From an uncultured Oscillospiraceae bacterium (GTDB taxonomy: Bacteria; Bacillota; Clostridia; Oscillospirales; Ruminococcaceae): a stretch of 24,000 nucleotides of DNA. The position numbers and the translations under genes are program-made. The notes below the pieces were generated by a model. The model was not told the DNA's origin, did no database searches, and saw nothing but the letters and a program-made list of their open reading frames with translations. Below, piece after piece: positions 977 through 23,251 of the stretch (its first letter is position 1; each line of letters starts with the position of its first letter). The DNA lies in NCBI GenBank assembly GCA_934466455.1, contig CAKSLF010000012.1, positions 27,939 through 51,938 on the forward strand. The letters are read 5' to 3'.

Positions 977-1297
977 TTATTTTTTCTTTTTCGGCTTTGG
1001 AGCGGGAAGCTCGCTGTACATTCCGATAAAAAGCTTTTTCAAATACTCGGAATCCTCAACCTCCTCCACCAAAAGCATATCTTTTGCTCCCGGATACGGC
1101 GGTTCCCGCTTTGCCCCCGGCATATATTTTTCCGCAAAGGGCACATCCTTTGCAAGAAGCCTGTCGTCGCAGACATATGCGGCGATTTTATCCTTGTAAT
1201 AAATTATGTATTCGCCCATCATCTGCCGACAAGAAACATCGCCGAGTCCCGAAAGGCGTTCCATTATAAAATCTATATATTCCCTGTCTGTTGCCAT
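977..1297 (-). CDS. TfoX/Sxy N-terminal-domain family protein
   Basis: The 106-aa protein MATDREYIDFIMERLSGLGDVSCRQMMGEYIIYYKDKIAAYVCDDRLL...ELPAPKPKKKK matches my memory of small clostridial TfoX_N proteins. GGAGGG lies 5 nt upstream of the ATG. Confidence 0.75.
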   Translation of the reverse strand: MATDREYIDFIMERLSGLGDVSCRQMMGEYIIYYKDKIAAYVCDDRLLAKDVPFAEKYMPGAKREPPYPGAKDMLLVEEVEDSEYLKKLFIGMYSELPAPKPKKKK

Positions 1298-11177: not shown

Positions 11178-11726
11178 TCAACGCCGATAGGCGGCATCTT
11201 CGATTCCGCAAAGTTCCATAACCCGGCAGGCAAACTGTTCGACTATGTCGTCCGCATTTTGCGGTCGGTGATAGAACGACGGCATGGGCGGCACAATATA
11301 CGCACCCATACGGGCAAGCTTCGCCATATTTTCAAGATGTATTTCGTTAAGCGGAGTTTCGTGCGGGCAGATTATAAGCTTTCTGTGCTCCTTCATTGCC
11401 ACATCCGCCGCACGAACGATCAGTTCCGCATCGTATCCGTGCGCAATGGCACTGAGAGTTTTCACCGTGCAGGGGATTATCACCGTTGCGTCGACCTTAT
11501 ATGAACCGCCGGAAATTCCCTCGGCCATATTGCCGTTGCTGCACACTTCGTCCGCAAGAGAGCGCACATATTCTGCGGTATAATCGGTTTCAAGTGCAAT
11601 GGTTTTCTCTGCCCATTCGCTCATAGCCAAAACCGTGGATACTTCCGGGTGGGTTTTCAGCTTTTTAAGCAGCTTTATTCCGTATATAACTCCGGTTGCG
11701 CCGGTAATTCCCACAACGATTTTCAT
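11178..11726 (-). CDS. ubiX: flavin prenyltransferase UbiX (LpdB-type)
   Basis: MKIVVGITGATGVIYGIKLLKKL...VIIPCTVKTLSAIAHGY...LIICPHETPLNEIHLENM... Start ATG 11726 is 7 nt after GGAGG and forms an ATGA overlap with the upstream stop. The tracked 11780 start is an extension. Confidence 0.92.
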   Translation of the reverse strand: MKIVVGITGATGVIYGIKLLKKLKTHPEVSTVLAMSEWAEKTIALETDYTAEYVRSLADEVCSNGNMAEGISGGSYKVDATVIIPCTVKTLSAIAHGYDAELIVRAADVAMKEHRKLIICPHETPLNEIHLENMAKLARMGAYIVPPMPSFYHRPQNADDIVEQFACRVMELCGIEDAAYRR

Positions 11727-12067
11727 GGCTTTTCCTCCGCAAAGTAGCTTTCGATAAATTTTTCCGCAAGTTCGCTGCAAAGAGCAAGGGTATCCGCAAT
11801 CTCCTCCCCGCTGATGTTGTCGAGATGGATTCCGCAGCAGACTGCGACATTCATCGGCAGCTTTTTACCGAATGCTTTGCACATTCTGTGCATGACTGCG
11901 TCCTCCTTGTGCCCGGCAAAGGCAAAGGTGCATCCTCCGGCAGAAACTGCCCCAAGGTGGGGCAGTTCTCCTCCGGTCACAATAAAGCACCAATCCTTGC
12001 CCATGGGCCGTGCCTGCATGGATATTTTAAGCCGTCCTTTTTCCGCAAAGAAAGCTTTCGTTTCCAT
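11723..12067 (-). CDS. LpdD-like small protein (putative prenylated-flavin chaperone/accessory subunit of UbiD-type decarboxylases)
   Basis: The 114-aa protein has IVTGGELPHLGAV and VCCGIHLDNISGEEI. These match my recollection of the GG-x-x-PH-I/L-G and G-I-H motifs of Lactobacillus plantarum LpdD. It is translationally coupled (ATGA) to ubiX. The family call is from memory. Confidence 0.6.
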   Translation of the reverse strand: METKAFFAEKGRLKISMQARPMGKDWCFIVTGGELPHLGAVSAGGCTFAFAGHKEDAVMHRMCKAFGKKLPMNVAVCCGIHLDNISGEEIADTLALCSELAEKFIESYFAEEKP

Positions 12068-12834
12068 TTTTTCAGTCCTTTTTCTTTGTCACAGGCGGAA
12101 TTTGCAGCGTTTTCGGAATTTTGCTGCACTTTCGCAGCGGAATTTTGGGCATTAAAAAAGCCGTTGCTTTCCGCATCGGCTTTCGTTTCGTTTTCTGTTT
12201 TTACTCTTTCGTTTTCTGCGATTCGTTCTTCAACTTTTCGCAAAGCCTCGGAGATATAATTACGCCGCTCCCCGTCTTGTTCCCCCTTTTCCAGCCACGA
12301 GCGATAAATTCTTGCTCGCGTTTTCTCATCCAAGTATTCGCTTTGGATTGGTTTGTTGTTGACGTCATAAAAATTCTCCTTTCCATCTGCAAGCAATGTG
12401 TCTACAAGATGTAAAACATCAGTGTTTTTCTCAGTGTCAAATTCGAGAATTTGGATAATTCCGTTTGTCGTATCTATTGTGTAATCGGTAATTCCCGCTT
12501 TTTCAAGGGCTTTTGCAACGGCAAACTCGTCCATATTGCGGTATCTTATGGTATATTCATAAGCGTTACCGTCGTCAATATTATCGACATATCGCTTCTG
12601 AATCGCCGCTTCCTGCTGCTCATAGCCGTTTTCAGCCATAAGGCTTGCAAAAAGCTGTGCCTGCTCCGGCGTTGCATTTTCGAACTCGAAGCTGTAGCTT
12701 ATTTCGTGAACCTGCTGTCCGGCAGCTTCTCCTTCGGAAAAAGTGAACCCGCCCATATTGTTTGTTTCACCCTTGAGCTTAATTCCGAGTATTTTAGCCG
12801 TGTTTTTCGCATTGTCCGTAAACACCCTGTTCAC
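11977..12834 (-). CDS. hypothetical protein, 'module Z' of the broken multi-module gene; probable gene fragment
   Basis: The tracked ORF starts at GTG 12834. The frame is actually open from 12903, directly after the TAA (12906..12904) that ends the upstream ORF, in the same frame. I recognise no family. The Gln/Asn/Ser-rich tail runs 91 nt into the lpdD-like gene. Confidence 0.5.
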   Translation of the reverse strand: MNRVFTDNAKNTAKILGIKLKGETNNMGGFTFSEGEAAGQQVHEISYSFEFENATPEQAQLFASLMAENGYEQQEAAIQKRYVDNIDDGNAYEYTIRYRNMDEFAVAKALEKAGITDYTIDTTNGIIQILEFDTEKNTDVLHLVDTLLADGKENFYDVNNKPIQSEYLDEKTRARIYRSWLEKGEQDGERRNYISEALRKVEERIAENERVKTENETKADAESNGFFNAQNSAAKVQQNSENAANSACDKEKGLKKWKRKLSLRKKDGLKYPCRHGPWARIGALL

Positions 12835-12903
12835 GGCTTCCTTTACCTGCTGCTTGTTCTCGGCGGTAACCTCCGTGTTATAATACGGCGCAAATGTTGC
12901 ATA

Positions 12904-13479
12904 TTAGCTACTTCTATTATGCTCGAATTTTTGGCTATTGTCAACACTGCTTTTTTGAGCACGGACATTCTCGCTTTGAGCACCGTTTTGATATTCGGGG
13001 GAATATTCATTAGAGGGGTTGACATTGTTTCCGCTTTGTGGTATCTTATCGGTAGAAGAGTTGTTATTCCAAGCGTCTTGGGCGTACATCCGGGGGGCAT
13101 GTCCATCTGGAGCGGAAGAAGCAGCTCTTCTTTTTTCTACTTCCTGTTTAAGCCCCTCTATCTTAGGTATGTCCCCTGTTCCTACTTTTATCATTTGCTT
13201 GTTGTATAGCAAATTGCCATCGCCAACAGCTTCAAGATAATATGTAGTTCCGTTGTGTCGTTTTTCGTAATATATGCCCACTTGCCCGTTTTCTTTTGTA
13301 ACATAATAGACATTATCATAGTTTTCAACAATGTCCGGTATCTGCTTCAAGTCTGCGGCAGTAACCGGATATTTTTCGTTTGCATTGCCTCTGCCGTGAC
13401 TATTGTCTATGTGTCTTATATCGTTGTCGCTCAAAACATGCGTTTTGCCCTCAACATCAACGCCGTAAAGAGTTTGCAT
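12904..13479 (-). CDS. hypothetical protein, 'module X copy 1' plus linker tail (PBECR/BECR-like nuclease-type domain, tentative); probable gene fragment
   Basis: MQTLYGVDVEGKTHVLSDNDIRHIDNSHGRGN...VTAADLKQIPDIVENYDNVYYV...GIYYEKRHNGTTYYLEAV. The frame stays open for 117 more codons upstream (to 13830) with no ATG, GTG or TTG, so the ATG at 13479 is probably internal. Confidence 0.55.
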   Translation of the reverse strand: MQTLYGVDVEGKTHVLSDNDIRHIDNSHGRGNANEKYPVTAADLKQIPDIVENYDNVYYVTKENGQVGIYYEKRHNGTTYYLEAVGDGNLLYNKQMIKVGTGDIPKIEGLKQEVEKRRAASSAPDGHAPRMYAQDAWNNNSSTDKIPQSGNNVNPSNEYSPEYQNGAQSENVRAQKSSVDNSQKFEHNRSS

Positions 13480-13505
13480 ATCGGAAACAAGCCTTTCGGA
13501 GGCTT
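12955..13505 (-). repeat. direct repeat copy 1 (~546 bp), partner at 14405-14955
   Basis: Aligned by eye at an offset of exactly 1,450 bp: 2 mismatches in 13121-13500 and 10 mismatches in 12955-13120. Confidence 0.9.
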
Positions 13506-13799
13506 GACCGTATATAATACTGTCTTTTTGCTTCGCAACATCCTCGGCATTTCTTTTTTTGTCGCCATATTCAAGAGCGTATTCAACATAGCTGTTTACA
13601 TTCTCTTGTGTTGCGGGCTTTTCTCTTGTACCTATATTCTCGTCAAAAATACCCCTCGTGCTTTCTTGAGCACCGCTCTTTTTGGCTTGAGCACCGTTTT
13701 GATATTCAGGGGAATATTCGTTAGCGGGGTTGACAGCCTTGTTAGAATCTGCTATATTCTTAGTAGAGGCAACCTCCAGTTGCTCTGATGTCCGTGAGT

Positions 13800-14344
13800 T
13801 TAGCTCTGGCTCAGAGGAGGTTGTCTTTTTTTATTTATATTTATATTTGAAAGGTCGTAAAAAAGCTTTCTTCCGTCTTTTTTTACCCCTATCAGAACAT
13901 CCGCAGAATATTCATTTTCGCCGATTTTCAGGTTTACATTTCCTCTGTCAAAAGAAACAATATTATCGTTCCTCGGATGCTCCGGAGGCTCATTTTTATA
14001 CTCGGTGCTTAGGGAAATGGTATCAAGATATGGCGAAGTACGCATTTTATCTGCGTATACTTCCGGCTCATAAGATGAAAGGTTTTTGCTTTCTTTGGAA
14101 TTTGAAAACTCTCCCCGGCTTTTTGCAGAAACTTCAATATGTTCTCCGTTTATGCTGAATCCTTCAGGGAAAACACTGCGGATAATGTTCTTAACCCTCG
14201 CAAGCCAATCTTTTTTCGGAAAGTTTTCAAGAACATCCGATTTTATATCAATGGTAGTGTTATTGTCTGCATCGGTAATAACGCTAACGCCCTTCTTTAT
14301 CTCCGCAACTTCTTGCTCAGAAAGAGAGTATTTTTCTCTCTTCG
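13800..14344 (-). pseudogene. start-less open frame, 'module Y' (second BECR-like nuclease-type domain, tentative)
   Basis: The tracked ORF is 13800..14045. My translation shows ~100 further sense codons upstream with no ATG, GTG or TTG: TKREKYSLSEQEVAEIKKGVSVITDADNNTTIDIKSDVLENFPKKDWLARVKNIIRSVFPEGFSINGEHIEVSAKSRGEFSNSKESKNLSSYEPEVYADK-MRTSPYLD...EHPRNDNIVSFDRGNVNLKIGENEYSADVLIGVKKDGRKLFYDLSNINI. Confidence 0.6.
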
Positions 14345-15235
14345 TTAAGCTGTCATTTTCCGCTTGAGCACCGTTTTTTCCGTTTGAGCACGGGTGCTTT
14401 CGGCTTGAGCACGGACAGTTTCGCTTTGAGCTCCGTTTTGATATTCGGGGGAATATTCGTTAGCGGGGTTGACATTGTTTCCGCTTTGTGGTATCTTATC
14501 AGTAGAAGAGTTGTTATTCCGAGCGTCTTGGACGTACATCCGGGGGGCGTGTCCATCTGGAGGGGAAGAAGCAGCTCTTCTTTTTTCTACTTCCTGTTTA
14601 AGCCCCTCTATCTTAGGTATGTCCCCTGTTCCTACTTTTATCATTTGCTTGTTGTATAGCAAATTGCCATCGCCAACAGCTTCAAGATAATATGTAGTTC
14701 CGTTGTGTCGTTTTTCGTAATATATGCCCACTTGCCCGTTTTCTTTTGTAACATAATAGACATTATCATAGTTTTCAACAATGTCCGGTATCTGCTTCAA
14801 GTCTGCGGCAGTAACCGGATATTTTTCGTTTGCATTGCCTCTGCCGTGACTATTGTCTATGTGTCTTATATCGTTGTCGCTCAAAACGTGCGTTTTGCCC
14901 TCAACATCAACGCCGTAAAGGGTTTGCATATCGGAAACAAGCCTTTCGGAAGCTTTTGTTATGTTTCCGCACTCAGCAATTGCCTTAAACTGCATCATCT
15001 GGTCACTGTTCATTTCCAATTGCTTCTTTGCAAGGAAATCAACAAAATACCACAGCAAAGCACCAATACACATTCCGCCAACGACCCACATAACATCAAT
15101 GGGCAAGCCAAGAACCGTTTCTTCTTTGAAATTCCCCCAGTTTAATTCAGAAAAAGCATATTCACTTAAAAATGCTACTGAAAGGAAAGGTGCCACGATG
15201 CATTTAAAGAACCCCCTCGTTTTTTGCAAGCGCAT
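14345..15235 (-). CDS. chimeric ORF: acyltransferase-3-derived membrane segments fused to 'module X copy 2' plus linker tail
   Basis: The N-terminal ~95 aa are hydrophobic (FFKCIVAPFLSVAFLSEY...VMWVVGGMCIGALLWYFVDFL) and continue the broken acyltransferase upstream. From ASERLVSDMQTLYGV onward it is near-identical to 12904..13505. Confidence 0.55.
   Translation of the reverse strand: MRLQKTRGFFKCIVAPFLSVAFLSEYAFSELNWGNFKEETVLGLPIDVMWVVGGMCIGALLWYFVDFLAKKQLEMNSDQMMQFKAIAECGNITKASERLVSDMQTLYGVDVEGKTHVLSDNDIRHIDNSHGRGNANEKYPVTAADLKQIPDIVENYDNVYYVTKENGQVGIYYEKRHNGTTYYLEAVGDGNLLYNKQMIKVGTGDIPKIEGLKQEVEKRRAASSPPDGHAPRMYVQDARNNNSSTDKIPQSGNNVNPANEYSPEYQNGAQSETVRAQAESTRAQTEKTVLKRKMTA
14405..14955 (-). 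repeat. direct repeat copy 2 (~546 bp), partner at 12955-13505
   Basis: See copy 1. Identity ends at 14955, where the acyltransferase-derived sequence begins, and at 14405. Confidence 0.9.
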
Positions 15236-15800
15236 AATATAATGCTATAGAGCAAATAAGAATTCCGGATAAATACCAAAGAGGATAGTTAAATGAAGTT
15301 ACCTGAGTTACAATGATATCATCCGTATTAAACTGGTTATTTCCACCCAGTGCATATGGAAGTGCCATTGCATTCGTAGCATGAAGTCCGGTAAAATTCC
15401 AGAAATTCAAGTTAAAAAGTGTGTATCACTCTTCAAAATTATATCCGTTAGTATAGCATATCTGAATAAATCCTGCAATCATTCCGACCAAAAGTGCCGG
15501 ATATAGCATTTTCCATCTTCCACAAGTATGTTCAGTAGCCTGTTTCTCAGCGGGAATAGTTGTTAGGCCCCTTCTCTGCTTGCTTTTATAAGAAGCAACC
15601 ATAAAATAGCCACTTGTTAGAAGGAAAAATCCAAGAACATATCCTCCGTTCCAGCACATAGGATTTTGTTATGCTATGGCCTCGGGTGCCAAATACCAGC
15701 AACGATTAGCAAAATGCATAATAGCAACTGCAAGTGTACAAAACACACGCCAAAAGTCGATGGCGCAATTTCTTTGTTTTTTTGGTGCAAGTTCTGCCAT
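15204..15800 (-). pseudogene. acyltransferase family 3 (O-acyltransferase) pseudogene fragments
   Basis: ATG 15800 gives MAELAPKKQRNCAIDFWRVFCTLAVAIMHFANRCWYLAPEAIA, then in-frame TAA (15671..15669). Next comes QNPMCWNGGYVLGFFLLTSGYFMVASY...NFEE, then in-frame TGA (15428..15426). Then YTLFNLNFWNF...NYPLWYLSGILICSIALYY, followed by a frameshift into ORF 14345..15235. IDFxR, LSGYF and PLWYLS are typical acyltransferase_3 motifs. Confidence 0.7.
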
Positions 15801-15988
15801 AAAAAAGCCTCTTCAAAAAAATTTCATTGCGAAACATCGATTACAGCTTATCATATAGCTTCTCCGCTTTCAAGCCCCCGGACAATTACAAGATTTTATG
15901 GCGACATAGAACAAATCTATCCACGCTTCTCCTCCCTTTTCGGGCTCCGATTTTATTTCTCCGTGCTCACGGTGCTCAGGCAAAACAA

Positions 15989-16047
15989 AGCTTTAAGCAC
16001 GGAATGAGCACCATGTTCAAAATTGAACTTGGCGTGTTCAAAGCAAA
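15989..16047 (+). repeat. intergenic element B, a compact relative of element A
   Basis: AGCTTtAAGCACGGAAT (15989-16005), CATGTTCAAAATT (16012-16024) and TGtTCAAAGCAAA (16035-16047), in the same order and orientation as in A. Confidence 0.5.
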
Positions 16048-16076
16048 GTAGCCGCATTCAGGTGCGGCTACTTTTT
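16047..16076 (+). terminator. rho-independent terminator in + orientation with no credible + strand gene
   Basis: AGTAGCCGCA (16047-16056) pairs with TGCGGCTACT (16063-16072) around a 6-nt loop, then TTTT(G). Confidence 0.55.
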
Positions 16077-16187
16077 GCCAAAACTCTGTTTTCTCTTCAT
16101 ATTAGGTATTATTTTTCGCAGCTTTTTTATGGAAATAAGTATAAATTACCGCCGTTTTTCCGGAGCGTATAAAAAATGTGCCCTTGC

Positions 16188-16223
16188 AAAACTGCCTCCG
16201 CATAAAAATGCGGAGGCAGTTTT
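16188..16223 (-). terminator. rho-independent terminator (bidirectional) after the amidohydrolase gene
   Basis: A perfect 16-bp inverted repeat, AAAACTGCCTCCGCAT with ATGCGGAGGCAGTTTT, around a 4-nt loop. It lies 5 nt downstream of the TAA at 16229-16231. Confidence 0.8.
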
Positions 16224-16228
16224 ACTCT

Positions 16229-17056
16229 TTATATTCCGAGTACTCTTGCGAAATTTTCTCCAAGAAGCATTCTGTTTTGCTCTTTTGAAAGCCCAAGCCT
16301 TAAAAGGCGGGCGAACTCCGTTTTGTGATCCTGTGACGGAAAATCCGTCCCCCAAAAGAAATTTTCTATTCCGAATTTGTCAAAAAACTTAAATACAAGT
16401 TCCTTTTCCATAAACATAATGGAGCTTGATATATCAAAATAGCATGTTCCCGGTTTATAAGCCTCGTATGCCCTTTCCCAGACTTGGTATCCGCCGAAAT
16501 GCGCTGCAATAACTTTCAGCTTAGGCAGCTCTTCCAAAACAGCAACCATTCTGCATGGGTCGGAAAAAGGCAACCTTTTATCGCCGGTGTGCACAAGCGC
16601 AAACATATCATTATCGCATATTGCTTTCCACATCGGAAAAACCGCTTTGTCGTCAATTAGGAACTTCTGAAAATCCGGATGGAGCTTTACTCCCATAATA
16701 CCCGCAGTCTTTATTCTTTTCAATTCGTCGTCTATGTTCACAAAATCCGGGTGGACGCTGCCAAAGCCTATAAATTGAGGGTTGAGCTTACACTCACAAA
16801 TTATAAAATCGTTAATGCTTTCCACTTGCTTTTCCGTTGTTGCAGCGGAACAGACCAAATATCTATCAACTTTTATCTTTCTTCCGGATTTTATAAGTTC
16901 CTCCGCCGTACCCAAGTGTGCCATAGGAACATTATAAAAGCTTCCGATAGCCTCTCCTGCTTTTTCGGCTATTTTTGGAGGATATATATGCGTATGTGCG
17001 TCTATTATTCTGTAATCGGGCAAAAAAATCACACCTTTCGCAGAAAATTCTATCAC
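16229..17056 (-). CDS. amidohydrolase-family metal-dependent hydrolase (TIM barrel)
   Basis: DYRIIDAHTHIYP carries the H-x-H metal motif, followed by ...HPDFQ...VHTGD...AAHFGG...GTDFP. The tracked start is GTG 17056. TTG 17023, 8 nt after AAAGGTG, is more likely. Confidence 0.8.
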   Translation of the reverse strand: MIEFSAKGVIFLPDYRIIDAHTHIYPPKIAEKAGEAIGSFYNVPMAHLGTAEELIKSGRKIKVDRYLVCSAATTEKQVESINDFIICECKLNPQFIGFGSVHPDFVNIDDELKRIKTAGIMGVKLHPDFQKFLIDDKAVFPMWKAICDNDMFALVHTGDKRLPFSDPCRMVAVLEELPKLKVIAAHFGGYQVWERAYEAYKPGTCYFDISSSIMFMEKELVFKFFDKFGIENFFWGTDFPSQDHKTEFARLLRLGLSKEQNRMLLGENFARVLGI

Positions 17057-17108
17057 AAACTCCGCCGAACTTCAAGGCAAGCGGCTATCAATATAATTTA
17101 TATAATAT

Positions 17109-17142
17109 AAAAAAACACCGTTCCAAATGGAACGGTGTTTTT
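17109..17142 (-). terminator. rho-independent terminator (bidirectional) ending the eut operon
   Basis: A7, then CACCGTTCC (17116-17124), 4-nt loop, GGAACGGTG (17129-17137), then T5. It lies 14 nt after the eutQ stop. Confidence 0.8.
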
Positions 17143-17155
17143 GAGAAATCAAAAA

Positions 17156-17611
17156 TTATTGATTTGCCCAGTCTGCCGGATAGGAGATGTAGATAAATCT
17201 AACATGATCCGGAGTGGAGAAATGAATGCTGGTGCCCTTCGGGATGAAGGTCATGTCGCCTGCGTGAGCAGTGACATCGCCGGCATCGGATTTAAGAACG
17301 ATGGTACCGTCAATGATGTACTCAGCTTCGTCATAGTTAAGAGTCCAAGGGAAATCTACGCCATTATCAAGCTCCATAACGCCGATACCGAGGCGAGGAG
17401 ATTCCTCAAGGGTAACTACATCGAGAAGAGAAACATCTTTGTTTGCGGCACCGATGTCAAAGGGGAAAGGTCCGCAGTTGACAGTTTCGGTCTTGATGCT
17501 CATCATGCCGTTGGAAAGAACATTTCTCTCAAAAGGCATAGCATCTTCGTTTTTCATATTCTCGCAGACTTTGGCGACAATCTCTTTAATCAGTTCTTCA
17601 CTGAGATTCAT
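17156..17611 (-). CDS. eutQ: ethanolamine utilisation protein EutQ (cupin domain), short form
   Basis: ...LNYDEAEYIIDGTIVLKSDAGDVTAHAGDMTFIPKGTSIHFSTPDHVRFIYISYPADW is the EutQ cupin core. GGAGG RBS. It is the last gene of the eut cluster. Confidence 0.85.
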   Translation of the reverse strand: MNLSEELIKEIVAKVCENMKNEDAMPFERNVLSNGMMSIKTETVNCGPFPFDIGAANKDVSLLDVVTLEESPRLGIGVMELDNGVDFPWTLNYDEAEYIIDGTIVLKSDAGDVTAHAGDMTFIPKGTSIHFSTPDHVRFIYISYPADWANQ

Positions 17612-17674
17612 GATGTGCGCCTCCTTCTACAATTAAAATTTTATAAAGGTGAAATACCTTTAAGATTTCTCAAT

Positions 17675-17705
17675 AGAAGAGCCTATCGCGGCAATAGGCT
17701 CTTCT
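17675..17705 (-). other. perfect 12-bp hairpin between eutH and eutQ, without a U-tract
   Basis: AGAAGAGCCTAT (17675-17686) pairs with ATAGGCTCTTCT (17694-17705) around a 7-nt loop. Confidence 0.4.
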
Positions 17706-17737
17706 GAGTTTTGGCAAAAAGCCAAGATCTTAGCTAA

Positions 17738-18967
17738 TTATTCTTTGTTGGCAGAAGGGATCTTTGCAAGAAGTGCAGGAGCCATGAAGTTGCCAAGAAC
17801 GATAGCAAGGATACCAGCAACAAGTTTACCAACGATCATCGGGAAGATCATGTCGGGGTTGTTACCGGCGCAGAATCCGAGGTGGTCACCAAATACGAAT
17901 GCTGCAGAAACAGCGAATGCGCAGTTGAGGAGTTTGCCCTTCGGGTTCATTTCTTTAAGAAGGTTGAACATTGCGATGTTGTTAGCAAGGTTTGCAACAA
18001 GACCAGCAGAACCAGCAGCATTCATGCCAAGAGCGGAACCGATTTTTTCAAGAGCTTTACCGAATTTGTCGGTAACGAACTTAACCATCGGATATGCACC
18101 GGCAAGGGTGATAGCGATAACGCCGCAGGTAAGAAGACCGCCAGCAAGGCCATCATGATTTTCGTCTACCATGAGTTCGAAAACAGGGAAAACGATACCG
18201 GTGTTGTACTGGAAGATAGCAATAGCAGTAACAGCAGTAATGAAGATGGTAACGCCGTTACCGAATTTATCGAAGCCTTTCATCATGCCGGCAGGAGCGA
18301 ACCAAAGACCAACAGCGATGAGGCCAGCGATGATAACAACAGGGATCATGTTGAGAAGAATTTCAGAAACAGTGAGCTTGTACTGAGTGGTGTTCATAAC
18401 GAAACCGCCGGCGATGCAGCCGATCGGAATAGTTACAAGACCTACAAGAGTACCTGCACCGAGGTAGGAACGATCTTCAGGATCGATGATACCAAGAGCT
18501 ACGGGGATGGTGAAAACGATGGTCGGGCCCATCATGGAGCCGAGGATAAGACCAGCGTAGTTACCGATAGCTTCGGACTCAGCCATAGTCATAGCAAGAG
18601 GATAACCGCCCATATCGCAAGCGAGAAGGGTGGTAGCGAACATAGCAGCGTCTGCGCCTACAAGTCCGTAGATAGGTCCAAAGATGGGCTTAAGAACGAG
18701 AGCAAGGATAGGAGCAACAGCAACAACGCCTGCCATAGACATAGCGAGAGGGCCCATTGCGTTGATACCTTCTTCAAACTGTTCGCCGTAACCGAGCTTA
18801 TTTCCGCAGATGCGGTCGATTGCGCCAACGAGCATAAAGATGGCCATGATCATAACAACGATAGTGCTTATTGCGGTCCAACCACCAAGGTTTGCAACCC
18901 AAGCTTTGAGAGAATCAGTGCACATAGGCAGAGTTTCGTTCCAAACCTGAATAAGTTCATCAAACAT
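17738..18967 (-). CDS. eutH: ethanolamine permease/facilitator EutH
   Basis: A 409-aa polytopic protein with ...GNKLGYGEQFEEGINAMGPLA...LLACDMGGYPLA..., which are EutH family motifs. AGGAGG RBS. Confidence 0.92.
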   Translation of the reverse strand: MFDELIQVWNETLPMCTDSLKAWVANLGGWTAISTIVVMIMAIFMLVGAIDRICGNKLGYGEQFEEGINAMGPLAMSMAGVVAVAPILALVLKPIFGPIYGLVGADAAMFATTLLACDMGGYPLAMTMAESEAIGNYAGLILGSMMGPTIVFTIPVALGIIDPEDRSYLGAGTLVGLVTIPIGCIAGGFVMNTTQYKLTVSEILLNMIPVVIIAGLIAVGLWFAPAGMMKGFDKFGNGVTIFITAVTAIAIFQYNTGIVFPVFELMVDENHDGLAGGLLTCGVIAITLAGAYPMVKFVTDKFGKALEKIGSALGMNAAGSAGLVANLANNIAMFNLLKEMNPKGKLLNCAFAVSAAFVFGDHLGFCAGNNPDMIFPMIVGKLVAGILAIVLGNFMAPALLAKIPSANKE

Positions 18968-19185
18968 AAAATTGACCTCCTAAAATAGTTTAATTCTCAA
19001 ACTATATTCATAAAAGGAGTTTCCAAAACGGAGTTTTTATAATACAAGACCGTAAAAATCGAACACTCCTTTCGGAGGCCGCTTGCCCGAAATTTAATTT
19101 ATGTATTCTTCCGTTTTGTACTTTTCCTAAAATGACATTAATACCTGTAAAAACAGGATTTTTCAAGGTTCAAAGCTGCGAAAAT

Positions 19186-19464
19186 TTATTCAATATCCGC
19201 AAGAACCGTGTCATCGATAACACCAACTATTGCAGCGTCGATAGGCACGCTTGTGCCAACGGCATATCTGGCGGGGTTTCCTGTGACGATAAGAACCTTA
19301 TCGCCGATACCGGCGTCAACAACATCCGCGGCTATATAGGGCTCTCGAGTGATGTTTCCGGCCATCTTATAGTCGAGAGGTTCGACGATAAGAAGTTTGA
19401 GGCCTTCGAGTTTCGGCTCTTTTCTGGTTGCCCATACGCTGCCTATAACTACTCCAATTCTCAT
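19186..19464 (-). CDS. eutN: BMC vertex (pentamer) protein EutN/CcmL family
   Basis: MRIGVVIGSVWATRKEPKLEGLKLLIVEPLD...DAGIGDKVLIVTG...IDAAIVGVID. Confidence 0.92.
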   Translation of the reverse strand: MRIGVVIGSVWATRKEPKLEGLKLLIVEPLDYKMAGNITREPYIAADVVDAGIGDKVLIVTGNPARYAVGTSVPIDAAIVGVIDDTVLADIE

Positions 19465-19496
19465 TTGGTAATACCTCCGTTAGATATGATCCGAAA

Positions 19497-20246
19497 TCAG
19501 ATCAGTTCAATTCCAAGCTCAAAAGCGGTATCTTTTGCAAGATAAGTTATAACCGGCTTTTCGGGAAGCTGCACTTTTTTATAGTGCTTTGCAGCCGCTT
19601 CACGAATATCTCTTTCGGTTATAACACGCTTTGTGAGTACAAGTACGGAATCATCGCTTTCTGCCTTGGTTGCTGCAACCGCAGGGGCAGAAGTGGGAGC
19701 TGCTTCAACAGCCTTGACTTCCTCGGCTTTTACGCACTCGACCGGTGCGTCCGCTCCCTCACAAATGGCGTCTTTTACGCCCTCTGCATCAACGAGCTCT
19801 ACGCCGCTGTCAAGGAGTATCTGGAGATTTTTATAAATATTATTGTACAGTGCTTTGGGAGCGGTTTCCGCATATTTGAGGATTTCCACTTCCTCTTTGA
19901 CCATAATTACCCGTTTACCCTTCAGGATCGCTTCAGCCGCAAGGGCAAGGAATTTATTGTCAGTGCAGCCATTAGCGATCTTGAACAAATTGCTGTTTGT
20001 CATATTGTAAAGCACGATGGAGTCAAAATCATCGACATTGACTTCATAGTTTTGTGCAAGTGCGCAAGTGACTTTGCACAGTTCGCTATCCAGCTTTTCA
20101 ACTGCGCATTCTTCGCAGTGATGCTCCGTGAGGATAAGGGCGGAATTTACTTTGCGCTCCGCAGGAACGGCAGAGGTAATTCCCTCTTTCTCGAGGTATG
20201 CCTTAACGGCACGGACAGCAAGCTCTATTAACAAATCCATATCCAT
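19497..20246 (-). CDS. BMC-locus hypothetical protein (possibly PduM-like); N-terminal amphipathic helix; C-terminal VITExDIR...TxLAKD motif
   Basis: ATG 20246 sits 5 nt after AAGGTGA; the tracked TTG 20267 is the alternative. The N-terminus is MDMDLLIELAVRAVKAYLEKEG. The central region ...LFKIANGCTDNKFLALAAEAILKGKRV recalls PduM, from memory. An Ala/Glu/Val-rich linker follows, and the C-terminal ~45 aa are described under findings. Confidence 0.55.
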   Translation of the reverse strand: MDMDLLIELAVRAVKAYLEKEGITSAVPAERKVNSALILTEHHCEECAVEKLDSELCKVTCALAQNYEVNVDDFDSIVLYNMTNSNLFKIANGCTDNKFLALAAEAILKGKRVIMVKEEVEILKYAETAPKALYNNIYKNLQILLDSGVELVDAEGVKDAICEGADAPVECVKAEEVKAVEAAPTSAPAVAATKAESDDSVLVLTKRVITERDIREAAAKHYKKVQLPEKPVITYLAKDTAFELGIELI

Positions 20247-20300
20247 AATTATCACCTTCTTTTTCAATAATATCTATTGGAAAAGATATGGGTGCTCCGG

Positions 20301-21122
20301 TCAATCGACCAGGCAGTTCATGGCTATACCAGTAGGCGTAACCAGGAACGGGTCTGCGGGTTTAATGGTCTTAATACCAACTGTATCTTCGAATATTTTC
20401 TCCATTCCGGTAAGGCAGCAAGTACCTCCGCAAAGATAGATGGTATCGATGTTATATTTGGATGTATATTTCTTTACGATAGTCGCCATCTTTTCAATTA
20501 CCGGTTTCACTATGGGAAGGATTTCCCTGTGACGAGAGTAATCCGTTTTTATCTTCTCGGCGTCCTCGAAAGGAATACCGTAACTTCCGGCAAGAACAAG
20601 AGAAAGATGAGTACCGCCCGTAGGCTCGTCGTCAACCTCTACAACCTTGCCGTCTTTGAAGATTGCAAGACCGGTGGTACCGCCGCCTATATCGACAACG
20701 ACTCCGTCGGTTATGCCATAGATGGAGTTGGCGGCAGTCGGCTCATCAAGGACATTTGTCACATCAAAACCGGCTCCCTCGACGCAATATTTATGTGTTT
20801 TTGTGCTGGATTCGGTGCCCGCAGGCATTGCGATTGCAGCATATTCAAGTTCTCTTCCAAGACGCTCTTCGAGCTTCTTTTTGAGTTTTCTTACTATGCC
20901 GCAAGCTCCCGCATAGTCAACTATTACGCCATCCTTAAGTACCTGTGCAAATTGCTTTTCACAGGCAACGGGATTGTTGTCCTCATCAAGCACCACAATA
21001 ACTATGTATGCGGTACCAAGGTCAACGCCAACCTTCAGCTTATCGGATACAGGCTTATGCACAACCGTTTCGGTTTCTGTAACACGAGCCATGTAAGCAT
21101 TGATTGTATCAAGATCAACCAT
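20301..21122 (-). CDS. eutJ: ethanolamine utilisation protein EutJ (actin/Hsp70-fold ATPase)
   Basis: KVGVDLGTAYIV (phosphate 1), VVDIGGGTTGLAIF (phosphate 2) and IYLCGGTCCLTG (adenosine motif). Confidence 0.92.
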   Translation of the reverse strand: MVDLDTINAYMARVTETETVVHKPVSDKLKVGVDLGTAYIVIVVLDEDNNPVACEKQFAQVLKDGVIVDYAGACGIVRKLKKKLEERLGRELEYAAIAMPAGTESSTKTHKYCVEGAGFDVTNVLDEPTAANSIYGITDGVVVDIGGGTTGLAIFKDGKVVEVDDEPTGGTHLSLVLAGSYGIPFEDAEKIKTDYSRHREILPIVKPVIEKMATIVKKYTSKYNIDTIYLCGGTCCLTGMEKIFEDTVGIKTIKPADPFLVTPTGIAMNCLVD

Positions 21123-21134
21123 TAAAGTACATCC

Positions 21135-21752
21135 TTATTTAATAATTTTGCCAAGTGCAAAACCTGCAATATGTGCGGCGCCGGCTTCGTCAACATCAAC
21201 ATGCATACGGGTACGGAATTTCGGAGAGACTCTGATAACGGTATCTTCGAAGACAAGCTTTCTGTCGGTAAGAGCTTCAACAGAAACTATCTGATTATCG
21301 ACAAGACCAAGTCTTTCCGCATCCTCGGGAGTCATGTGAACATGACGGAGCGCAACGATTGCGCCTTCGTCAATAGTAATCTCACCGTTAGGACCTACAA
21401 GTGTTACGCTTGCAGAGCCTTTGGTGTCGCCCGACTGTCTGATGGGCGGATTGATTCCAAGGGCAAAAGCATCGCTGAATGAGACCTCAACCTGCACATG
21501 CTTTCTCTCCGGACCGAGAACTGCGACATTTTTGAAAGAACCTTTCGGTCCGATAATGTCAACTCTCTCTTCTTCGAGATACTGTCCGGGCTGGCTAAGC
21601 TCTCTTTTTGGGGTAAGAGTATGACCTACGCCAAAAAGAACTTCTACGCTTTCCTTGTCCAGATGCACGTGTCTGGCGGAGACCTCTATCTGAACAAGTC
21701 CCGCAGTTCTGATTTCGTCAACAACTGCTTCTACGACTTTTTCTGCAGCCAT
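21135..21752 (-). CDS. pduL: phosphate propanoyl/acetyl-transferase PduL
   Basis: The two PduL repeats are VSARHVHLDKESVEVLFG and VALRHVHMTPEDAERLGL, with ...RVSPKFRTRMHVDVDEA. Confidence 0.93.
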   Translation of the reverse strand: MAAEKVVEAVVDEIRTAGLVQIEVSARHVHLDKESVEVLFGVGHTLTPKRELSQPGQYLEEERVDIIGPKGSFKNVAVLGPERKHVQVEVSFSDAFALGINPPIRQSGDTKGSASVTLVGPNGEITIDEGAIVALRHVHMTPEDAERLGLVDNQIVSVEALTDRKLVFEDTVIRVSPKFRTRMHVDVDEAGAAHIAGFALGKIIK

Positions 21753-21769
21753 GTGTCTCCTCCTATAAA

Positions 21770-22540
21770 TTATTTATATTCACCCGCCAAGTACATACAC
21801 ATCATAATGTGGAATGCACTCGAGAGGCGGTTGAGAGTCCTGATGATCTCGGGCTGTTTGACATTTTTTCCGTCAACAAAGCAATCGAGAGCAGCAAGCT
21901 CCAATTCACGCACTTTCGCACGGAGCATATTAAGCTTGGTGTAATCAACTCCCATAGTGTAGTTTGGGAGAAGCATCTGCTTAATATTAAAGTATTTCTG
22001 CGGGTTGTGGGAACGGGCACGAAGCTCATCGGGGGTAAGACCGATGATTTTAACCTCGCTCATTTCCTCCTCCATTACCTCACAGTACATAATCTGGTTA
22101 AGCACCTTATTGATGTCGCCCAGATCGTCTATAAGCTTCTGGGGGCCGCTGGAAGCAGCAATCTCCGCCTGTATCATAACGACAGTGGAGCTCATGCTGT
22201 CAAGCTTTCCGCGGAAAACTATCCTTGGATGATTTTTATAAACCAATCTATTACCGAAAAGCTGGCACATATATTCCGGCTTTTTAACATAGAAAGCTCC
22301 GGTTTGCTCATCAACATATTTTGCTCCGGCAGGAGTATCGCTGATGGCGGAAGCTTTGCTGTTGGATGATGCCGCAGGCGCAGGAGCAGCCGGCGGATCG
22401 CCAAACTCAACTTTAATTTTAAGCTGGTTCAGGTATTCCTTTGCGGCGGGAGAAAGGAGTTTGTCCTTCGGTACATAATATACGGGAGGGCATTCGCCTT
22501 TAAGCTCGTTGCGGAGCACCATCTCGGTAATGACCTTCAT
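21770..22540 (-). CDS. eutT: ethanolamine-utilisation cob(I)alamin adenosyltransferase (PduO-like core with N-terminal extension; Firmicutes 'EutT')
   Basis: HPRIVFRGKLDS..., ...LNMLRAKVRELELAAL... and ...TLNRLSSAFHIMMCMY parallel the PduO-type helices (G-x-x-DE, R-R-x-E-R and LNRLSD). Position in the operon fits. The family call is from memory. Confidence 0.75.
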   Translation of the reverse strand: MKVITEMVLRNELKGECPPVYYVPKDKLLSPAAKEYLNQLKIKVEFGDPPAAPAPAASSNSKASAISDTPAGAKYVDEQTGAFYVKKPEYMCQLFGNRLVYKNHPRIVFRGKLDSMSSTVVMIQAEIAASSGPQKLIDDLGDINKVLNQIMYCEVMEEEMSEVKIIGLTPDELRARSHNPQKYFNIKQMLLPNYTMGVDYTKLNMLRAKVRELELAALDCFVDGKNVKQPEIIRTLNRLSSAFHIMMCMYLAGEYK

Positions 22541-22587
22541 AATATCACCCCCATCTTTGTGTAGTTAAATTCTAAACTTCTTCAGAA

Positions 22588-22869
22588 TTATTCGATGGAC
22601 GGGAGGATATACTCGACCTCTTCATGAGGTCTGGGGATGACATGAGTAGAAATAAGCTCGCCAACACGGTCTGCAGCAGCTGCACCTGCATCGACAGCGG
22701 CTTTGGTAGCGCCGACATCACCGCGTACAAACACGGTTACGAGGGCGCCACCAACGATAACTCTGCCAATGAGGGTGACATTTGCGGCTTTAACCATAGC
22801 ATCGGCTGCTTCAATAGCTCCGACAAGACCTTTAGTCTCAATCATGCCAAGTGCTTGTTTCTCAGCCAT
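22588..22869 (-). CDS. eutM: BMC-H hexameric shell protein (EutM/PduA type)
   Basis: [35 protein letters not shown]...[17 protein letters not shown]...HVIPRPH is a canonical Pfam00936-type shell protein. Confidence 0.95.
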
Positions 22870-22893
22870 CTTGTCTCCTCCTTAAAGGGTAAA

Positions 22894-23181
22894 TTATTCT
22901 TTGTCGAGATGCGGGAGGATGTATTCAACTTCCTCGTGGGGTCTCGGAATTACATGAACGGATTTGAGCTCGCCAACGCGGTCTGCAGCAGCAGCACCTG
23001 CATCGGTAGCAGCTTTGGTTGCACCAACATCTCCGCGTACGAAAACGGTTACAAGTCCGCCGCCAACATGTACTTTACCGATGAGGGTAACATTAGCAGC
23101 TTTAACCATGGCATCAGCAGCTTCAATTGCGCCGACAAGGCCTCTGGTTTCGATCATGCCCAGTGCTTGTTTATCAGTCAT
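22894..23181 (-). CDS. eutM: BMC-H hexameric shell protein (EutM/PduA type), tandem paralogue
   Basis: [62 protein letters not shown]... Confidence 0.95.
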
Positions 23182-23251
23182 TGTGTAGTACCTCCTTAAT
23201 TATTGGGGCCATGCCCCCTGGTTCTACTATATAGTATGGAAAAAACTCAAA

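What the first reader, a model, noticed from the sequence alone, without database searches (positions are those of the whole stretch)
11977..15235. Four head-to-tail open frames reconstitute one ~1,085-codon multi-module ORF resembling an orphan, broken polyvalent protein
**Seen in the sequence.** Four minus-strand frames lie head to tail:
- ORF 14345..15235.
- An open frame 14344->13800 whose first start codon of any kind (ATG/GTG/TTG) is ~100 codons in.
- An open frame 13830->12904 whose first start codon is 117 codons in.
- A frame 12903->11977.

Adding one A at each of two poly-A tracts and reading through one in-frame TAA joins them. The result is (15235-11977+1+2)/3 = 1,087 codon positions, counting the internal TAA and the final stop, i.e. 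~1,085 sense codons. The architecture is TM segments, X2, linker, Y, linker, X1, linker, Z.

**Inference.** Long start-less sense runs are not expected by chance, so this was (or is) one gene. Strings of small nuclease-like modules joined by low-complexity linkers are the hallmark of the polyvalent proteins described for conjugative elements and phages. No integrase, relaxase, T4SS or virion gene lies in this window. The locus is therefore one of three things: a stranded remnant, a domesticated chromosomal version, or a gene whose expression needs frame correction.
Basis: partly seen in the sequence, partly recalled or inferred. Interest (0 to 1): 0.7.

Follow-up and report, generated by a model that had tools for sequence, protein, structure and literature searches.

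The report
Stranded, broken phage polyvalent-gene fragment
The four head-to-tail frames are a decaying ~2.85 kb internal piece of a giant phage-type "polyvalent" effector gene that was spliced into a chromosomal LysR regulator gene, so it is a dead remnant and not a working 1,085-codon gene.

Summary
The four minus-strand frames exist as described. One added A at 14374-14379, one at 13826-13832, and read-through of TAA 12906-12904 give 1,087 codon positions.

- Only 14950->12103 (~950 codons) is polyvalent-protein sequence. Its order is PBECR3 (X2, N-truncated), LPD3 (Y), PBECR3 (X1, complete), then a ~240-aa module Z with no Pfam hit.
- The "TM segments" are the tail of a broken Acyl_transf_3 pseudogene.
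- The next 21-25 codons are the start of a LysR gene.
- The last ~40 codons are read-through into the neighbouring LpdD-chaperone gene.

A related contig (L019) carries the same acyltransferase::LysR joint with LysR continuing intact. This places the 5' breakpoint inside a 15/17-nt microhomology. Another relative (L018) shares the 3' joint but has a different cassette upstream of it.

Intact homologues carry X, Y or Z inside single long ORFs. Z relatives sit in 2,000-4,200-aa proteins that include predicted viral contigs.

The lesions are real differences from homologues: a 20-nt unit among 21-nt units, A8->A7, and CAA->TAA.

Verdict: a stranded remnant, a new member of a known kind. The side observation worth keeping is that similar fragments sit at four or more other housekeeping sites in gut Clostridia, with cassette swaps between conspecific strains.

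The parts
15016..15800 (-). Acyl_transf_3 pseudogene remnant: about the first 262 of ~415 codons. It supplies the 'TM segments' and the ATG at 15235 of the first ORF.
   Evidence: - Pfam gives a weak Acyl_transf_3 hit.
- Homologues P0036-P0041 carry PF01757, and the intact ones are 412-421 aa.
- Lesions are TAA 15671-15669, TGA 15428-15426 and a +1 G at 15212-15216.
- TGA is shared with L017, and the G5 run is shared with L019.
- L017 has GAA at 15671 and G4 at the G-run.
14951..15013 (-). Start of a LysR-family regulator gene (MNSDQMMQFKAIAECGNITKA...), cut off after the ASERL codons.
   Evidence: - Pfam HTH_1 matches profile positions 2-23 at E 0.034.
- The sequence is 100% identical to the N-terminus of P0042. 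There the LysR continues for 149 residues to the end of the called ORF and carries PF00126.
14939..14950 (-). 5' recombination joint: TCCGAAAGGCTT, within a 15/17-nt microhomology (AAGCyTCCGAAmGGCTT) between LysR and the X cassette.
   Evidence: In the three-way alignment the window follows L019 up to ...AAAAGCT and follows X1 from TCCGAAAGG onward.
14447..14950 (-). Cassette X2: PBECR3 predicted RNase module. It lacks the ~50-aa N-terminal extension that X1 has. The Pfam core is 14663-14956.
   Evidence: - Pfam PBECR3 at 1.9e-15, 57.2 bits.
- tblastn to P0002 gives 81% identity.
- X2 differs from X1 at 11 of 531 nt.
14361..14446 (-). Linker 1: a post-cassette NEYSPEYQNGA fused to pre-cassette 21-nt repeat units (xGAQxEN). 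Holds frameshift lesion 1 at the A6 tract 14374-14379.
   Evidence: the repeat finder families D2-D4 show unit spacings of 20 and 21 nt. TRF finds period 21 at 14357-14431. Intact linkers are seen in P0003-P0009.
13833..14360 (-). Cassette Y: LPD3 module. The Pfam core is 13863-14150.
   Evidence: - Pfam LPD3 at 5.8e-6.
- 96.4% nucleotide identity to L009 over 723 nt.
- 91-93% amino-acid identity to P0003-P0010, where Y is internal to ORFs of up to 1,053 aa.
13826..13832 (-). Frameshift lesion 2: an A7 tract that is A8 in the in-frame homologue. It lies next to a 6-nt repeat gain.
   Evidence: Alignment to L009. TRF finds 3.5 copies of TTTATA at 13828-13848.
13660..13825 (-). Linker 2 (TTSSEPELNSR...NPANEYSPEYQNGAQAKKSGAQES).
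   Evidence: A 77-nt direct-repeat family has copies at 12948-13024, 13659-13735 and 14398-14474. The same linker is seen in P0003-P0009.
12997..13659 (-). Cassette X1: a complete PBECR3 module with its N-terminal extension. The Pfam core is 13213-13503.
   Evidence: - Pfam PBECR3 at 3.4e-15, 56.4 bits.
- 86% identity to P0002 and 71% to P0012, where X is internal to ORFs of 994 and 787 aa.
12907..12996 (-). Linker 3 (NEYSPEYQNGAQSENVRAQKSSVDNSQKFEHNRSS).
   Evidence: Repeat family D2. Aligned with P0001 and P0013.
12904..12906 (-). In-frame TAA nonsense codon. Homologues have Gln here.
   Evidence: P0001 reads ...NKVSQYATVAPYY and P0013 reads ...NRNSQYATVAPYY. The codon identity was checked.
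12182..12903 (-). [not shown]
   Evidence: - 88% nucleotide identity to L008, with dN/dS 0.10 and dS 0.48.
- 152 library hits, mostly inside 2,000-4,200-aa proteins.
- AlphaFold model with pLDDT 89.6 and pTM 0.83.
- Best fold match is a segment of a large phage protein in BFVD (E 7e-15, TM 0.70).
- No significant PDB match.
12103..12181 (-). Terminal linker (ADAESNGFFNAQNSAAKVQQNSENAA) and the 3' joint at ~12100-12103 with the native upstream region of the LpdD-chaperone gene.
   Evidence: Homology to polyvalent proteins ends at 12103. L018 shares this linker and joint, differing by one 24-nt unit, but diverges upstream of 12181.
11723..12067 (-). Native neighbour: the PAC_bac/LpdD prenylated-flavin chaperone gene. 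The Z frame runs on, out of frame, into the first 88 nt of this gene. It is followed by UbiX-like flavoprotein at 11178-11780.
   Evidence: Pfam PF21758 at 1.3e-26 and PF02441 at 2.1e-42.

Best explanation
**What it is.** The locus is a non-functional remnant. A ~2.85 kb internal piece of a giant, phage-type polyvalent-effector gene lies at window 14950->12103. Its order is PBECR3(deltaN)-linker-LPD3-linker-PBECR3-linker-Z-linker. It sits in a strip of decaying chromosomal genes between an amidohydrolase/eut operon and an LpdD-UbiX pair.

**The joints (shown).**
- The 5' joint is an illegitimate crossover inside a 15/17-nt microhomology in the helix-turn-helix codons of a LysR gene. That LysR gene had already been fused to a truncated acyltransferase pseudogene.
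- The 3' joint lies ~35 nt upstream of the LpdD-chaperone start and is shared with a related strain.

**How it got there (inferred).**
- DNA that already carried a polyvalent fragment next to LpdD/UbiX recombined into an L019-like chromosome.
- A homologous crossover occurred on the LpdD/UbiX side and a microhomology joint formed in LysR. This is homology-facilitated illegitimate recombination.
- The tandem cassettes arose by recombination between near-identical linker repeats (the 21-nt units and the 77-nt NEYSPEYQNGA block). The same process swaps cassettes in intact relatives.

**Decay since (shown).** The piece has acquired one nonsense codon and two frameshifts.

**Function of the parent (inferred from the literature).** In the parent protein the cassettes would be effectors delivered with the invading DNA. 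PBECR3 is a predicted metal-independent endoRNase. LPD3 and Z have unknown activity. In this window they have no native start and no delivery context.
For: **Domain identity.**

**The first ORF is a chimera.**
- Acyltransferase homologues are 412-421 aa and carry PF01757.
- P0042/L019 shows the same ...FLAKKQLE|MNSDQ... joint with LysR continuing.
- The three-way alignment pins the crossover.

**The neighbouring pseudogene lesions are real.** Independent assemblies share some and lack others. TGA 15428 is in L017, the G5 run is in L019, and TAA 15671 is GAA in L017.

**The lesions in the fragment differ from in-frame homologues.**

**Cassettes are internal modules of long ORFs elsewhere.**
- P0001, P0002 and P0004.
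- Z relatives sit in 2,000-4,200-aa proteins with ART-PolyVal, MuF_C or LPD38.
- One is a 4,167-aa ORF on a 98.6 kb IMG/VR contig.
- Z's fold matches segments of large phage proteins.

**The fragment lacks the family's ends.** It has neither the N-terminal nor the C-terminal region.

**Recent capture from a functional gene.** Z against L008 gives dN/dS 0.10.

**The 3' joint is shared with L018, but a different cassette lies upstream.**

**L017, a 97.7%-identical relative, joins a longer acyltransferase directly to the C-terminal part of an X cassette.**

**Context is housekeeping only.**

**Composition.** The coding strand is A-rich over ~11.5-15 kb, with plus-strand AT skew of -0.23 to -0.30 against about -0.05 in most adjacent 1-kb windows.

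**Literature.**
- Mosaic PBECR/LPD3 polyvalent proteins are described in PMC5512222.
- Isolated remnants of integrated elements in a gut Clostridia genus are described in PMC12084326.
- Homology-facilitated illegitimate recombination is described in PMC3240628.
Against: - No independent assembly confirms the three lesions inside the fragment or the internal joints LysR::X2, X2-Y, Y-X1 and X1-Z. Exact-protein look-ups and two junction scans found nothing.
- Two of the three lesions sit in homopolymers, where sequencing errors are common.
- The order of events cannot be phased from 0.8-1 kb contigs. L019 has the acyltransferase-LysR deletion but an intact LysR. L017 has more acyltransferase sequence. 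L018 has the same 3' joint.
- The PBECR3 core of X1 and X2 is identical over 324 nt. This could reflect gene conversion, a recent duplication, or selection.
- Similar fragments recur at four or more other housekeeping sites. Pure chance stranding does not obviously predict that.
- The parent element itself was not found. There was no close match in IMG/VR or in plasmids, and only one weak match among GenBank phages.
Confidence: 0.8

Rival explanations
1. [not shown]
For: - Each cassette is flanked by the same linker repeats.
- In relatives X, Y and Z occupy one and the same slot as alternatives.
- Two conspecific strains with 99.6% identical flanks differ by a clean Y/X swap of 623 against 642 nt, bounded by the linkers.
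- L018 shares the 3' joint but has another cassette.
- Fragments of this family lie at four or more other housekeeping sites.
- The X1/X2 core is identical over 324 nt.
Against: - One nonsense codon lies inside Z, and the frameshifts are not corrected.
- X2 is cut by the LysR joint.
- The fragment sits among other pseudogenes.
- Relatives' fragments are also often frameshifted: L009 as 528+468 aa, L010 as 787+229 aa.
- No expressed partner gene is visible in the 24 kb window.
- No PADLOC hit.
- Exchange with incoming phage copies would also occur for a neutral remnant.
Confidence: 0.1
2. An intact or conditionally expressed gene. The two frameshifts are homopolymer sequencing errors or phase-variable tracts, and the TAA is read through. 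One long protein is then made, or a LysR(1-25)-PBECR3 fusion is made from ORF 14345-15235.
For: - Both frameshifts lie in A6 and A7 tracts.
- The first ORF contains a complete PBECR3 core in frame with upstream ATGs.
- No terminator-like site lies between the fragment and LpdD.
Against: - Even the repaired frame starts inside an acyltransferase pseudogene that has two stops and a frameshift. Some of those lesions are seen in independent assemblies.
- The TAA is a substitution, not a slippage product.
- Lesion 2 comes with a 6-nt repeat gain.
- The LysR ATG has only GGA 2 nt upstream as a ribosome-binding candidate (read directly from the sequence).
- No orthologue with this architecture exists among 5.8 billion clustered proteins. 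The best hit covers 39% of the query.
Confidence: 0.05
3. Assembly artefact. The X2-Y-X1 arrangement is a mis-join across the 77-nt and ~540-nt repeats, and the true locus holds fewer cassettes.
For: - The internal joints are not seen in any other assembly.
- Long near-identical repeats are present.
Against: - X1 and X2 differ at 11 positions and have different upstream contexts.
- The three linkers differ from each other.
- The acyltransferase::LysR joint and the 3' joint are each confirmed by an independent assembly.
- The LysR::X2 joint has its own microhomology signature.
Confidence: 0.05

Closest known systems
Polyvalent proteins of phages and conjugative elements (Iyer et al. 2017, PMC5512222), especially the mosaic PBECR/LPD3 proteins of the jhp1044 type in Helicobacter prophages
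   Same: - It has the same domain repertoire: PBECR3 twice, LPD3 once, plus a further module found only inside giant polyvalent proteins.
- Modules are strung together and duplicated or rearranged between relatives.
   Different: - It is an internal fragment of ~950 codons with no start of its own, no N- or C-terminal region and no delivery or processing domain.
- It is broken by three lesions and sits among housekeeping genes, not virion or T4SS genes.
Isolated or undelineated remnants of integrated mobile elements in gut Clostridia (Faecalibacterium survey, PMC12084326)
   Same: It is a piece of mobile-element DNA with no integrase, att site or transfer genes, left in the chromosome.
   Different: - It is much smaller: a part of one gene.
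- Both joints are resolved to within a few bases, and allelic states are seen in relatives.
- The parent looks phage-type rather than conjugative. [quoted passage not shown]
Homology-facilitated illegitimate recombination (PMC3240628 and the work on competent bacteria it cites)
   Same: One end is shared with a related strain in homologous sequence (LpdD/UbiX). The other end is a short-microhomology joint in an unrelated gene.
   Different: The mechanism is inferred from the end products only. The route of DNA entry and the donor are unknown.
Orphan toxin-cassette arrays downstream of rhs/cdiA-type polymorphic toxin genes (from general knowledge)
   Same: It is a start-less tandem array of alternative effector cassettes, each preceded by a conserved recombination-prone segment.
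   Different: - No full-length gene lies next to it, and there are no immunity genes between cassettes.
- The cassettes are disrupted.
- The resemblance is formal only and was not tested.

Membership tests
Polyvalent protein (sensu Iyer et al. 2017) | Two to fifteen effector domains from the polyvalent repertoire in one polypeptide | tested here: inconclusive
   Four modules (PBECR3 twice, LPD3, Z) lie head to tail. They form one polypeptide only after three repairs.
Polyvalent protein (sensu Iyer et al. 2017) | Encoded by a phage or conjugative element, next to virion or T4SS genes | tested here: not met
   The window holds MraZ, UvrC, HPr, TrmD, RimM, Ffh, UbiX, LpdD, an amidohydrolase and eut genes. 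It has no tRNA and no mobile-element gene.
Polyvalent protein (sensu Iyer et al. 2017) | A single intact ORF with its own start | tested here: not met
   There are two frameshifts and one TAA. The N-terminus is borrowed from an acyltransferase pseudogene and a LysR gene.
PBECR3 (PF18812) | Profile match above Pfam's gathering score | tested here: met
   X2 scores 57.2 bits and X1 scores 56.4 bits against a cut-off of 30.
PBECR3 (PF18812) | [quoted passage not shown] | not tested
   Both copies keep ...DIRHIDNSHG.... The residues were not mapped onto the published alignment.
LPD3 (PF18798) | Profile match above Pfam's gathering score | tested here: inconclusive
   Y scores 26.9 bits against a cut-off of 27. 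Homologues of Y at 57-69% identity score 50.8-56.2 bits.
LysR-type regulator (HTH_1, PF00126) | N-terminal helix-turn-helix followed by a substrate-binding domain | tested here: not met
   Only codons 1-25 remain, scoring 14.5 bits against a cut-off of 26.6. They are 100% identical to P0042, which carries PF00126.
Acyl_transf_3 (PF01757) | A full-length membrane acyltransferase of ~330-420 aa | tested here: not met
   About 262 codons remain, with two stops and a frameshift. Intact homologues are 412-421 aa.

The most novel reading that the evidence does not exclude
Chromosomal fragments of this polyvalent family may not be random debris. They may be a recurring class of small cassette islands in gut Clostridia.
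- They are lodged between housekeeping genes at five or more independent sites, counting this window.
- They keep exchanging effector cassettes through their linker repeats with incoming phage copies.
- They may be retained because they serve the host or the phage, for example as a cassette reservoir, a recombination trap, or a source of promoter activity for the downstream LpdD-UbiX genes.
Probability: 0.1. Interest if true: 0.7.

Novelty: new member of a known kind. Interest (0 to 1): 0.35.

Why it matters
- For annotation, 14345-15235 should not be called a membrane or PBECR3 protein. The four frames should be marked as one pseudogene fragment plus two other pseudogene remnants.
- For biology, the locus is an unusually well-resolved case of how a piece of phage DNA gets stranded in a chromosome. 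Both joints are mapped, a pre-insertion allele exists, and sister alleles are known.
- It shows at the DNA level how near-identical linker repeats let polyvalent proteins swap and stack effector cassettes.
- Module Z has a confident fold, about 150 library relatives, and no Pfam or PHROG match. It is a candidate for a new LPD-type family.

Tried and rejected
**Searches that found nothing useful.**
- Exact-protein look-ups of the 296-aa ORF and the LpdD gene found nothing.
- A close-relative scan of IMG/VR found nothing.
- tblastn against plasmids found nothing.
- tblastn against GenBank phages gave one 37% hit to Y.
- Two junction-pattern scans of JGI metagenomes found nothing.
- Rfam and tRNA scans of the window were empty.
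- PADLOC gave no hit for any cassette or homologue.
- PHROGs gave nothing for Z or for most homologues.

**Ideas rejected.**
- Stop-codon reassignment. The in-frame stops are a mix of TAA and TGA, and the surrounding genes are normal.
- Stand-alone genes for each piece. Relatives have the pieces inside long ORFs.
- The shared tail ...TPNFLKIRHFTFW... of many homologues as the end of a mobile element. It starts at about the point where the flank shared by L009 and L011 resumes, upstream of PFK, so it is read-through into chromosomal DNA.

Full report
**1. The observation**

The four minus-strand frames exist as described.
- 15244->14348, with the ORF starting at ATG 15235 (296 aa).
- 14459->13803, first start codon of any kind at 14045.
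- 13830->12907, first start at 13479, 117 codons in.
- 12903->11980, first start GTG at 12834.

Adding one A to the A6 tract 14379-14374, adding one A to the A7 tract 13832-13826, and reading through TAA 12906-12904 gives 3,261 nt, or 1,087 codon positions.

The long start-less stretches are coding sequence. They align in frame at 86-96% identity to proteins from other assemblies.

**2. What the pieces are**

Pfam results:

| Piece | Family | Score |
|---|---|---|
| X2 | PBECR3 | 57.2 bits (cut-off 30) |
| X1 | PBECR3 | 56.4 bits (cut-off 30) |
| Y | LPD3 | 26.9 bits (cut-off 27) |

More distant homologues of Y hit LPD3 at 50-76 bits.

- An exhaustive profile-free search found 152 relatives, most embedded in proteins of 2,000-4,200 aa.
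- Two of the three sampled giants carry ART-PolyVal, and one of those also carries MuF_C and LPD38.
- One Z relative lies in a 4,167-aa ORF with ART-PolyVal on a 98.6 kb IMG/VR contig.
- The model has no significant PDB match. It does match segments of large phage proteins in BFVD at E 7e-15 and TM 0.70. Other matches there are named RelA/SpoT, large-polyvalent-domain and pyrophosphatase proteins.

**3. The ends are not polyvalent**

*Upstream end.*
- The frames 15812->15207 and the first 74 codons of the "first ORF" are one broken Acyl_transf_3 gene.
- Its homologues carry PF01757, and the intact ones are 412-421 aa long.
- A relative with 97.7% nucleotide identity to window 15003-23998 (L017) reads the same codons as internal acyltransferase residues.
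- Against L017, the window has a +1 G at 15212-15216 and TAA in place of GAA at 15671. Both share TGA at 15428.
- ATG 15235 is therefore an artefact of that frameshift, and the "TM segments" belong to the acyltransferase.

*The LysR stretch.*
- Codons 75-99 (MNSDQMMQFKAIAECGNITKASERL) match LysR HTH_1 profile positions 2-23.
- They are 100% identical to P0042. That protein comes from an 807-nt contig, L019. There the same ...FLAKKQLE|MNSDQ... joint is followed by LysR sequence for 149 residues to the end of the called ORF (YVTQPSLSHMLKKLEEELG...).

*The 5' crossover.* The three-way alignment of L019, the window and X1 shows:
- The window follows L019 up to ...AACATAACAAAAGCT.
- The window follows X1 from TCCGAAAGGCTTGTTTCC onward.
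- The crossover therefore lies inside TCCGAA, within a 15/17-nt microhomology at 14939-14955.
- X2 consequently lacks the ~50-aa N-terminal extension that X1 and P0002 have.

*Downstream end.*
- Homology to polyvalent proteins stops at ~12103, at ...NSENAA|NSACDKEKG.
- The frame then runs out of frame into the PAC_bac/LpdD chaperone gene, whose ATG is at 12067. UbiX follows.

**4. Relatives carry the modules inside long single ORFs**
- P0003-P0010 carry Y, P0002 and P0012 carry X, and P0001 and P0013 carry Z.
- Each module lies between a pre-cassette linker (...LELMRAQNGAQ(xENxGAQ)n) and a post-cassette linker (NPANEYSPEYQNGAEHPETVGAMES...).
- These proteins have ~600 aa of conserved N-terminal sequence and a conserved C-terminal continuation that the window lacks.
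- No protein in the 5.8-billion-cluster collection covers more than 39% of the reconstructed Y-X1-Z stretch.
- In the window, the joints between cassettes are fusions of a post-cassette linker to a pre-cassette linker (YQNGA|QSE...). They are encoded by a 77-nt repeat present three times and by 21-nt units.
- This is what unequal recombination between linkers would produce (inference).
- The same linkers bound a clean cassette swap between two conspecific strains. L009 and L010 are 99.5-99.7% identical over ~10 kb on each side. They differ only in a 623-nt Y segment against a 642-nt X segment.

**5. The lesions**
- Lesion 1 is a 20-nt unit among 21-nt units.
- Lesion 2 is an in-frame 6-nt repeat gain plus A8->A7, measured against L009. 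L009 is 96.4% identical over 723 nt.
- The TAA corresponds to Gln in P0001 and P0013.
- These are ordinary mutational differences from in-frame homologues.
- No second assembly of this exact allele was found to rule out sequencing error.
- Z against its 88%-identical relative in L008 gives dN/dS 0.10 at dS 0.48. Most of the divergence therefore arose under purifying selection, and the capture is recent compared with that divergence.

**6. Alleles at this locus**

| Contig | State |
|---|---|
| L019 | Window-like acyltransferase::LysR joint and G5 frameshift, but LysR intact |
| L018 | 98% identical across UbiX-LpdD; same 3' joint and terminal linker, minus one 24-nt unit; entirely different sequence upstream of 12181 |
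| L017 | Longer acyltransferase remnant joined directly to the C-terminal part of a P0002-type X cassette |

Reading of these alleles:
- The 3' joint is old, or has spread by recombination, while the 5' joints differ.
- The simplest reading is inferred, not shown. A donor that already carried a fragment next to LpdD recombined into an L019-like chromosome. One crossover was homologous and the other was a microhomology joint. This is homology-facilitated illegitimate recombination.
- The short contigs do not allow the events to be ordered.

**7. Context**
- The window is housekeeping throughout: MraZ, UvrC, HPr, TrmD, RimM, Ffh, YlxM, UbiX, LpdD, an amidohydrolase, EutQ and EutH.
- There are no tRNA genes or Rfam families.
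- The coding strand over ~11.5-15 kb is markedly A-rich compared with most adjacent windows.

**8. Comparison with what is known**
- The piece is derived from a polyvalent protein in the sense of Iyer et al. 2017. That paper already describes extensive mosaicism of PBECR/LPD3 proteins.
- It fails the criteria of mobile-element context and intact ORF, so it is a remnant and not a member in working order.
- Isolated remnants of integrated elements are reported as common and under-counted in the gut Clostridia genus Faecalibacterium.

**9. What remains odd**
- Fragments of this same family, 1.7-3.9 kb long and lacking both ends of the parent gene, lie between housekeeping genes at four other sites:
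  - DAPDH|PGI in L008.
  - DUF4363|PFK in L009-L012.
  - AraC|methyltransferase, next to a tRNA-like sequence, in L013.
  - SpoIVA|epimerase in L014/L015.
- Several of them are also frameshifted.
- This may reflect a very large, repeat-rich gene being the likeliest survivor of element decay, plus the bias of searching with this gene.
- It may instead reflect a retained class of cassette islands. I rate the second reading at about 0.1.

**Verdict.** The best explanation is a stranded, decaying fragment. It is a new member of a known kind and of modest interest. The well-resolved joints, the linker-mediated cassette shuffling and the unannotated Z module are the useful by-products.

Noticed in passing
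window 15016-15800 (-): Acyl_transf_3 pseudogene. It has TAA 15671-15669, TGA 15428-15426 and a +1 G at 15212-15216, and is truncated at ~262 of ~415 codons. TGA is shared with L017. L017 has its own extra A near 15784.
   Followed up: yes
L009 10178-10800 vs L010 11762-12403: Two conspecific gut strains, 99.5-99.7% identical over ~10 kb on each side, differ by a clean swap of an LPD3 cassette for a PBECR3 cassette inside a chromosomal polyvalent-like gene upstream of PFK. A third strain (L011) has a different 3.3 kb allele at the same site.
   Followed up: partly
L008 9882-11593; L013 9875-13790; L014 9989-12388; L009 8418-11404: Internal fragments of the same polyvalent family lie between housekeeping genes at four other chromosomal sites, with no mobile-element genes beside them. 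Several are frameshifted. The L013 fragment appears to abut a tRNA gene, judged by eye only.
   Followed up: partly
L009 ~11302-11407 and the C-termini of P0002-P0009 and P0031: Many homologues end in the same ...TPNFLKIRHFTFWAHLLTQQHIYFVFLYMMCF, joined at three different breakpoints in the gene. The tail starts at about the point where the chromosomal flank shared by L009 and L011 resumes upstream of PFK. So it is read-through into flank DNA, not part of the protein family.
   Followed up: partly
window 13170-13493 vs 14620-14943 (approx.): X1 and X2 are identical over 324 nt (codons 23-130, the PBECR3 core). Their flanks differ at 11 positions, 4 of them non-synonymous and 3 of those derived in X2. 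This suggests gene conversion or a mosaic origin.
   Followed up: partly
window 12916-12944 (-): A strong sigma-70-like match (TTGACA-17-CATAAT, 11/12) lies on the coding strand just upstream of Z. No terminator-like site lies between it and LpdD-UbiX. The fragment might now supply transcription for those genes.
   Followed up: no
window 12182-12903 (-): Module Z gives a confident predicted fold (pLDDT 89.6) and has about 150 relatives in giant phage-type proteins. It has no Pfam or PHROG match and no significant PDB fold match. It is a candidate for a new LPD-type domain family.
   Followed up: yes
window 12134-12157 (approx.) vs L018: One 24-nt linker unit (NSAAKVQQ) is present in the window and absent in L018. 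The linker repeats evidently gain and lose units.
   Followed up: no
window 17156-24000 (-); L017 1-8246: An ethanolamine-utilisation microcompartment operon (EutQ and EutH confirmed in the window; BMC shell proteins, aldehyde dehydrogenase, PTAC and EutN from L017's gene table). It is colinear and 97.7% identical between the window and L017.
   Followed up: partly
window 977-1297 (-): A small ORF with a TfoX N-terminal domain just below Pfam's cut-off (29.7 against 30.1 bits). TfoX proteins regulate competence in some bacteria. This could bear on how foreign DNA gets in.
   Followed up: no
window 16188-16223: A 16-bp perfect hairpin with T-runs on both sides lies just downstream of the amidohydrolase gene, between it and the acyltransferase pseudogene. 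It looks like a bidirectional terminator.
   Followed up: no
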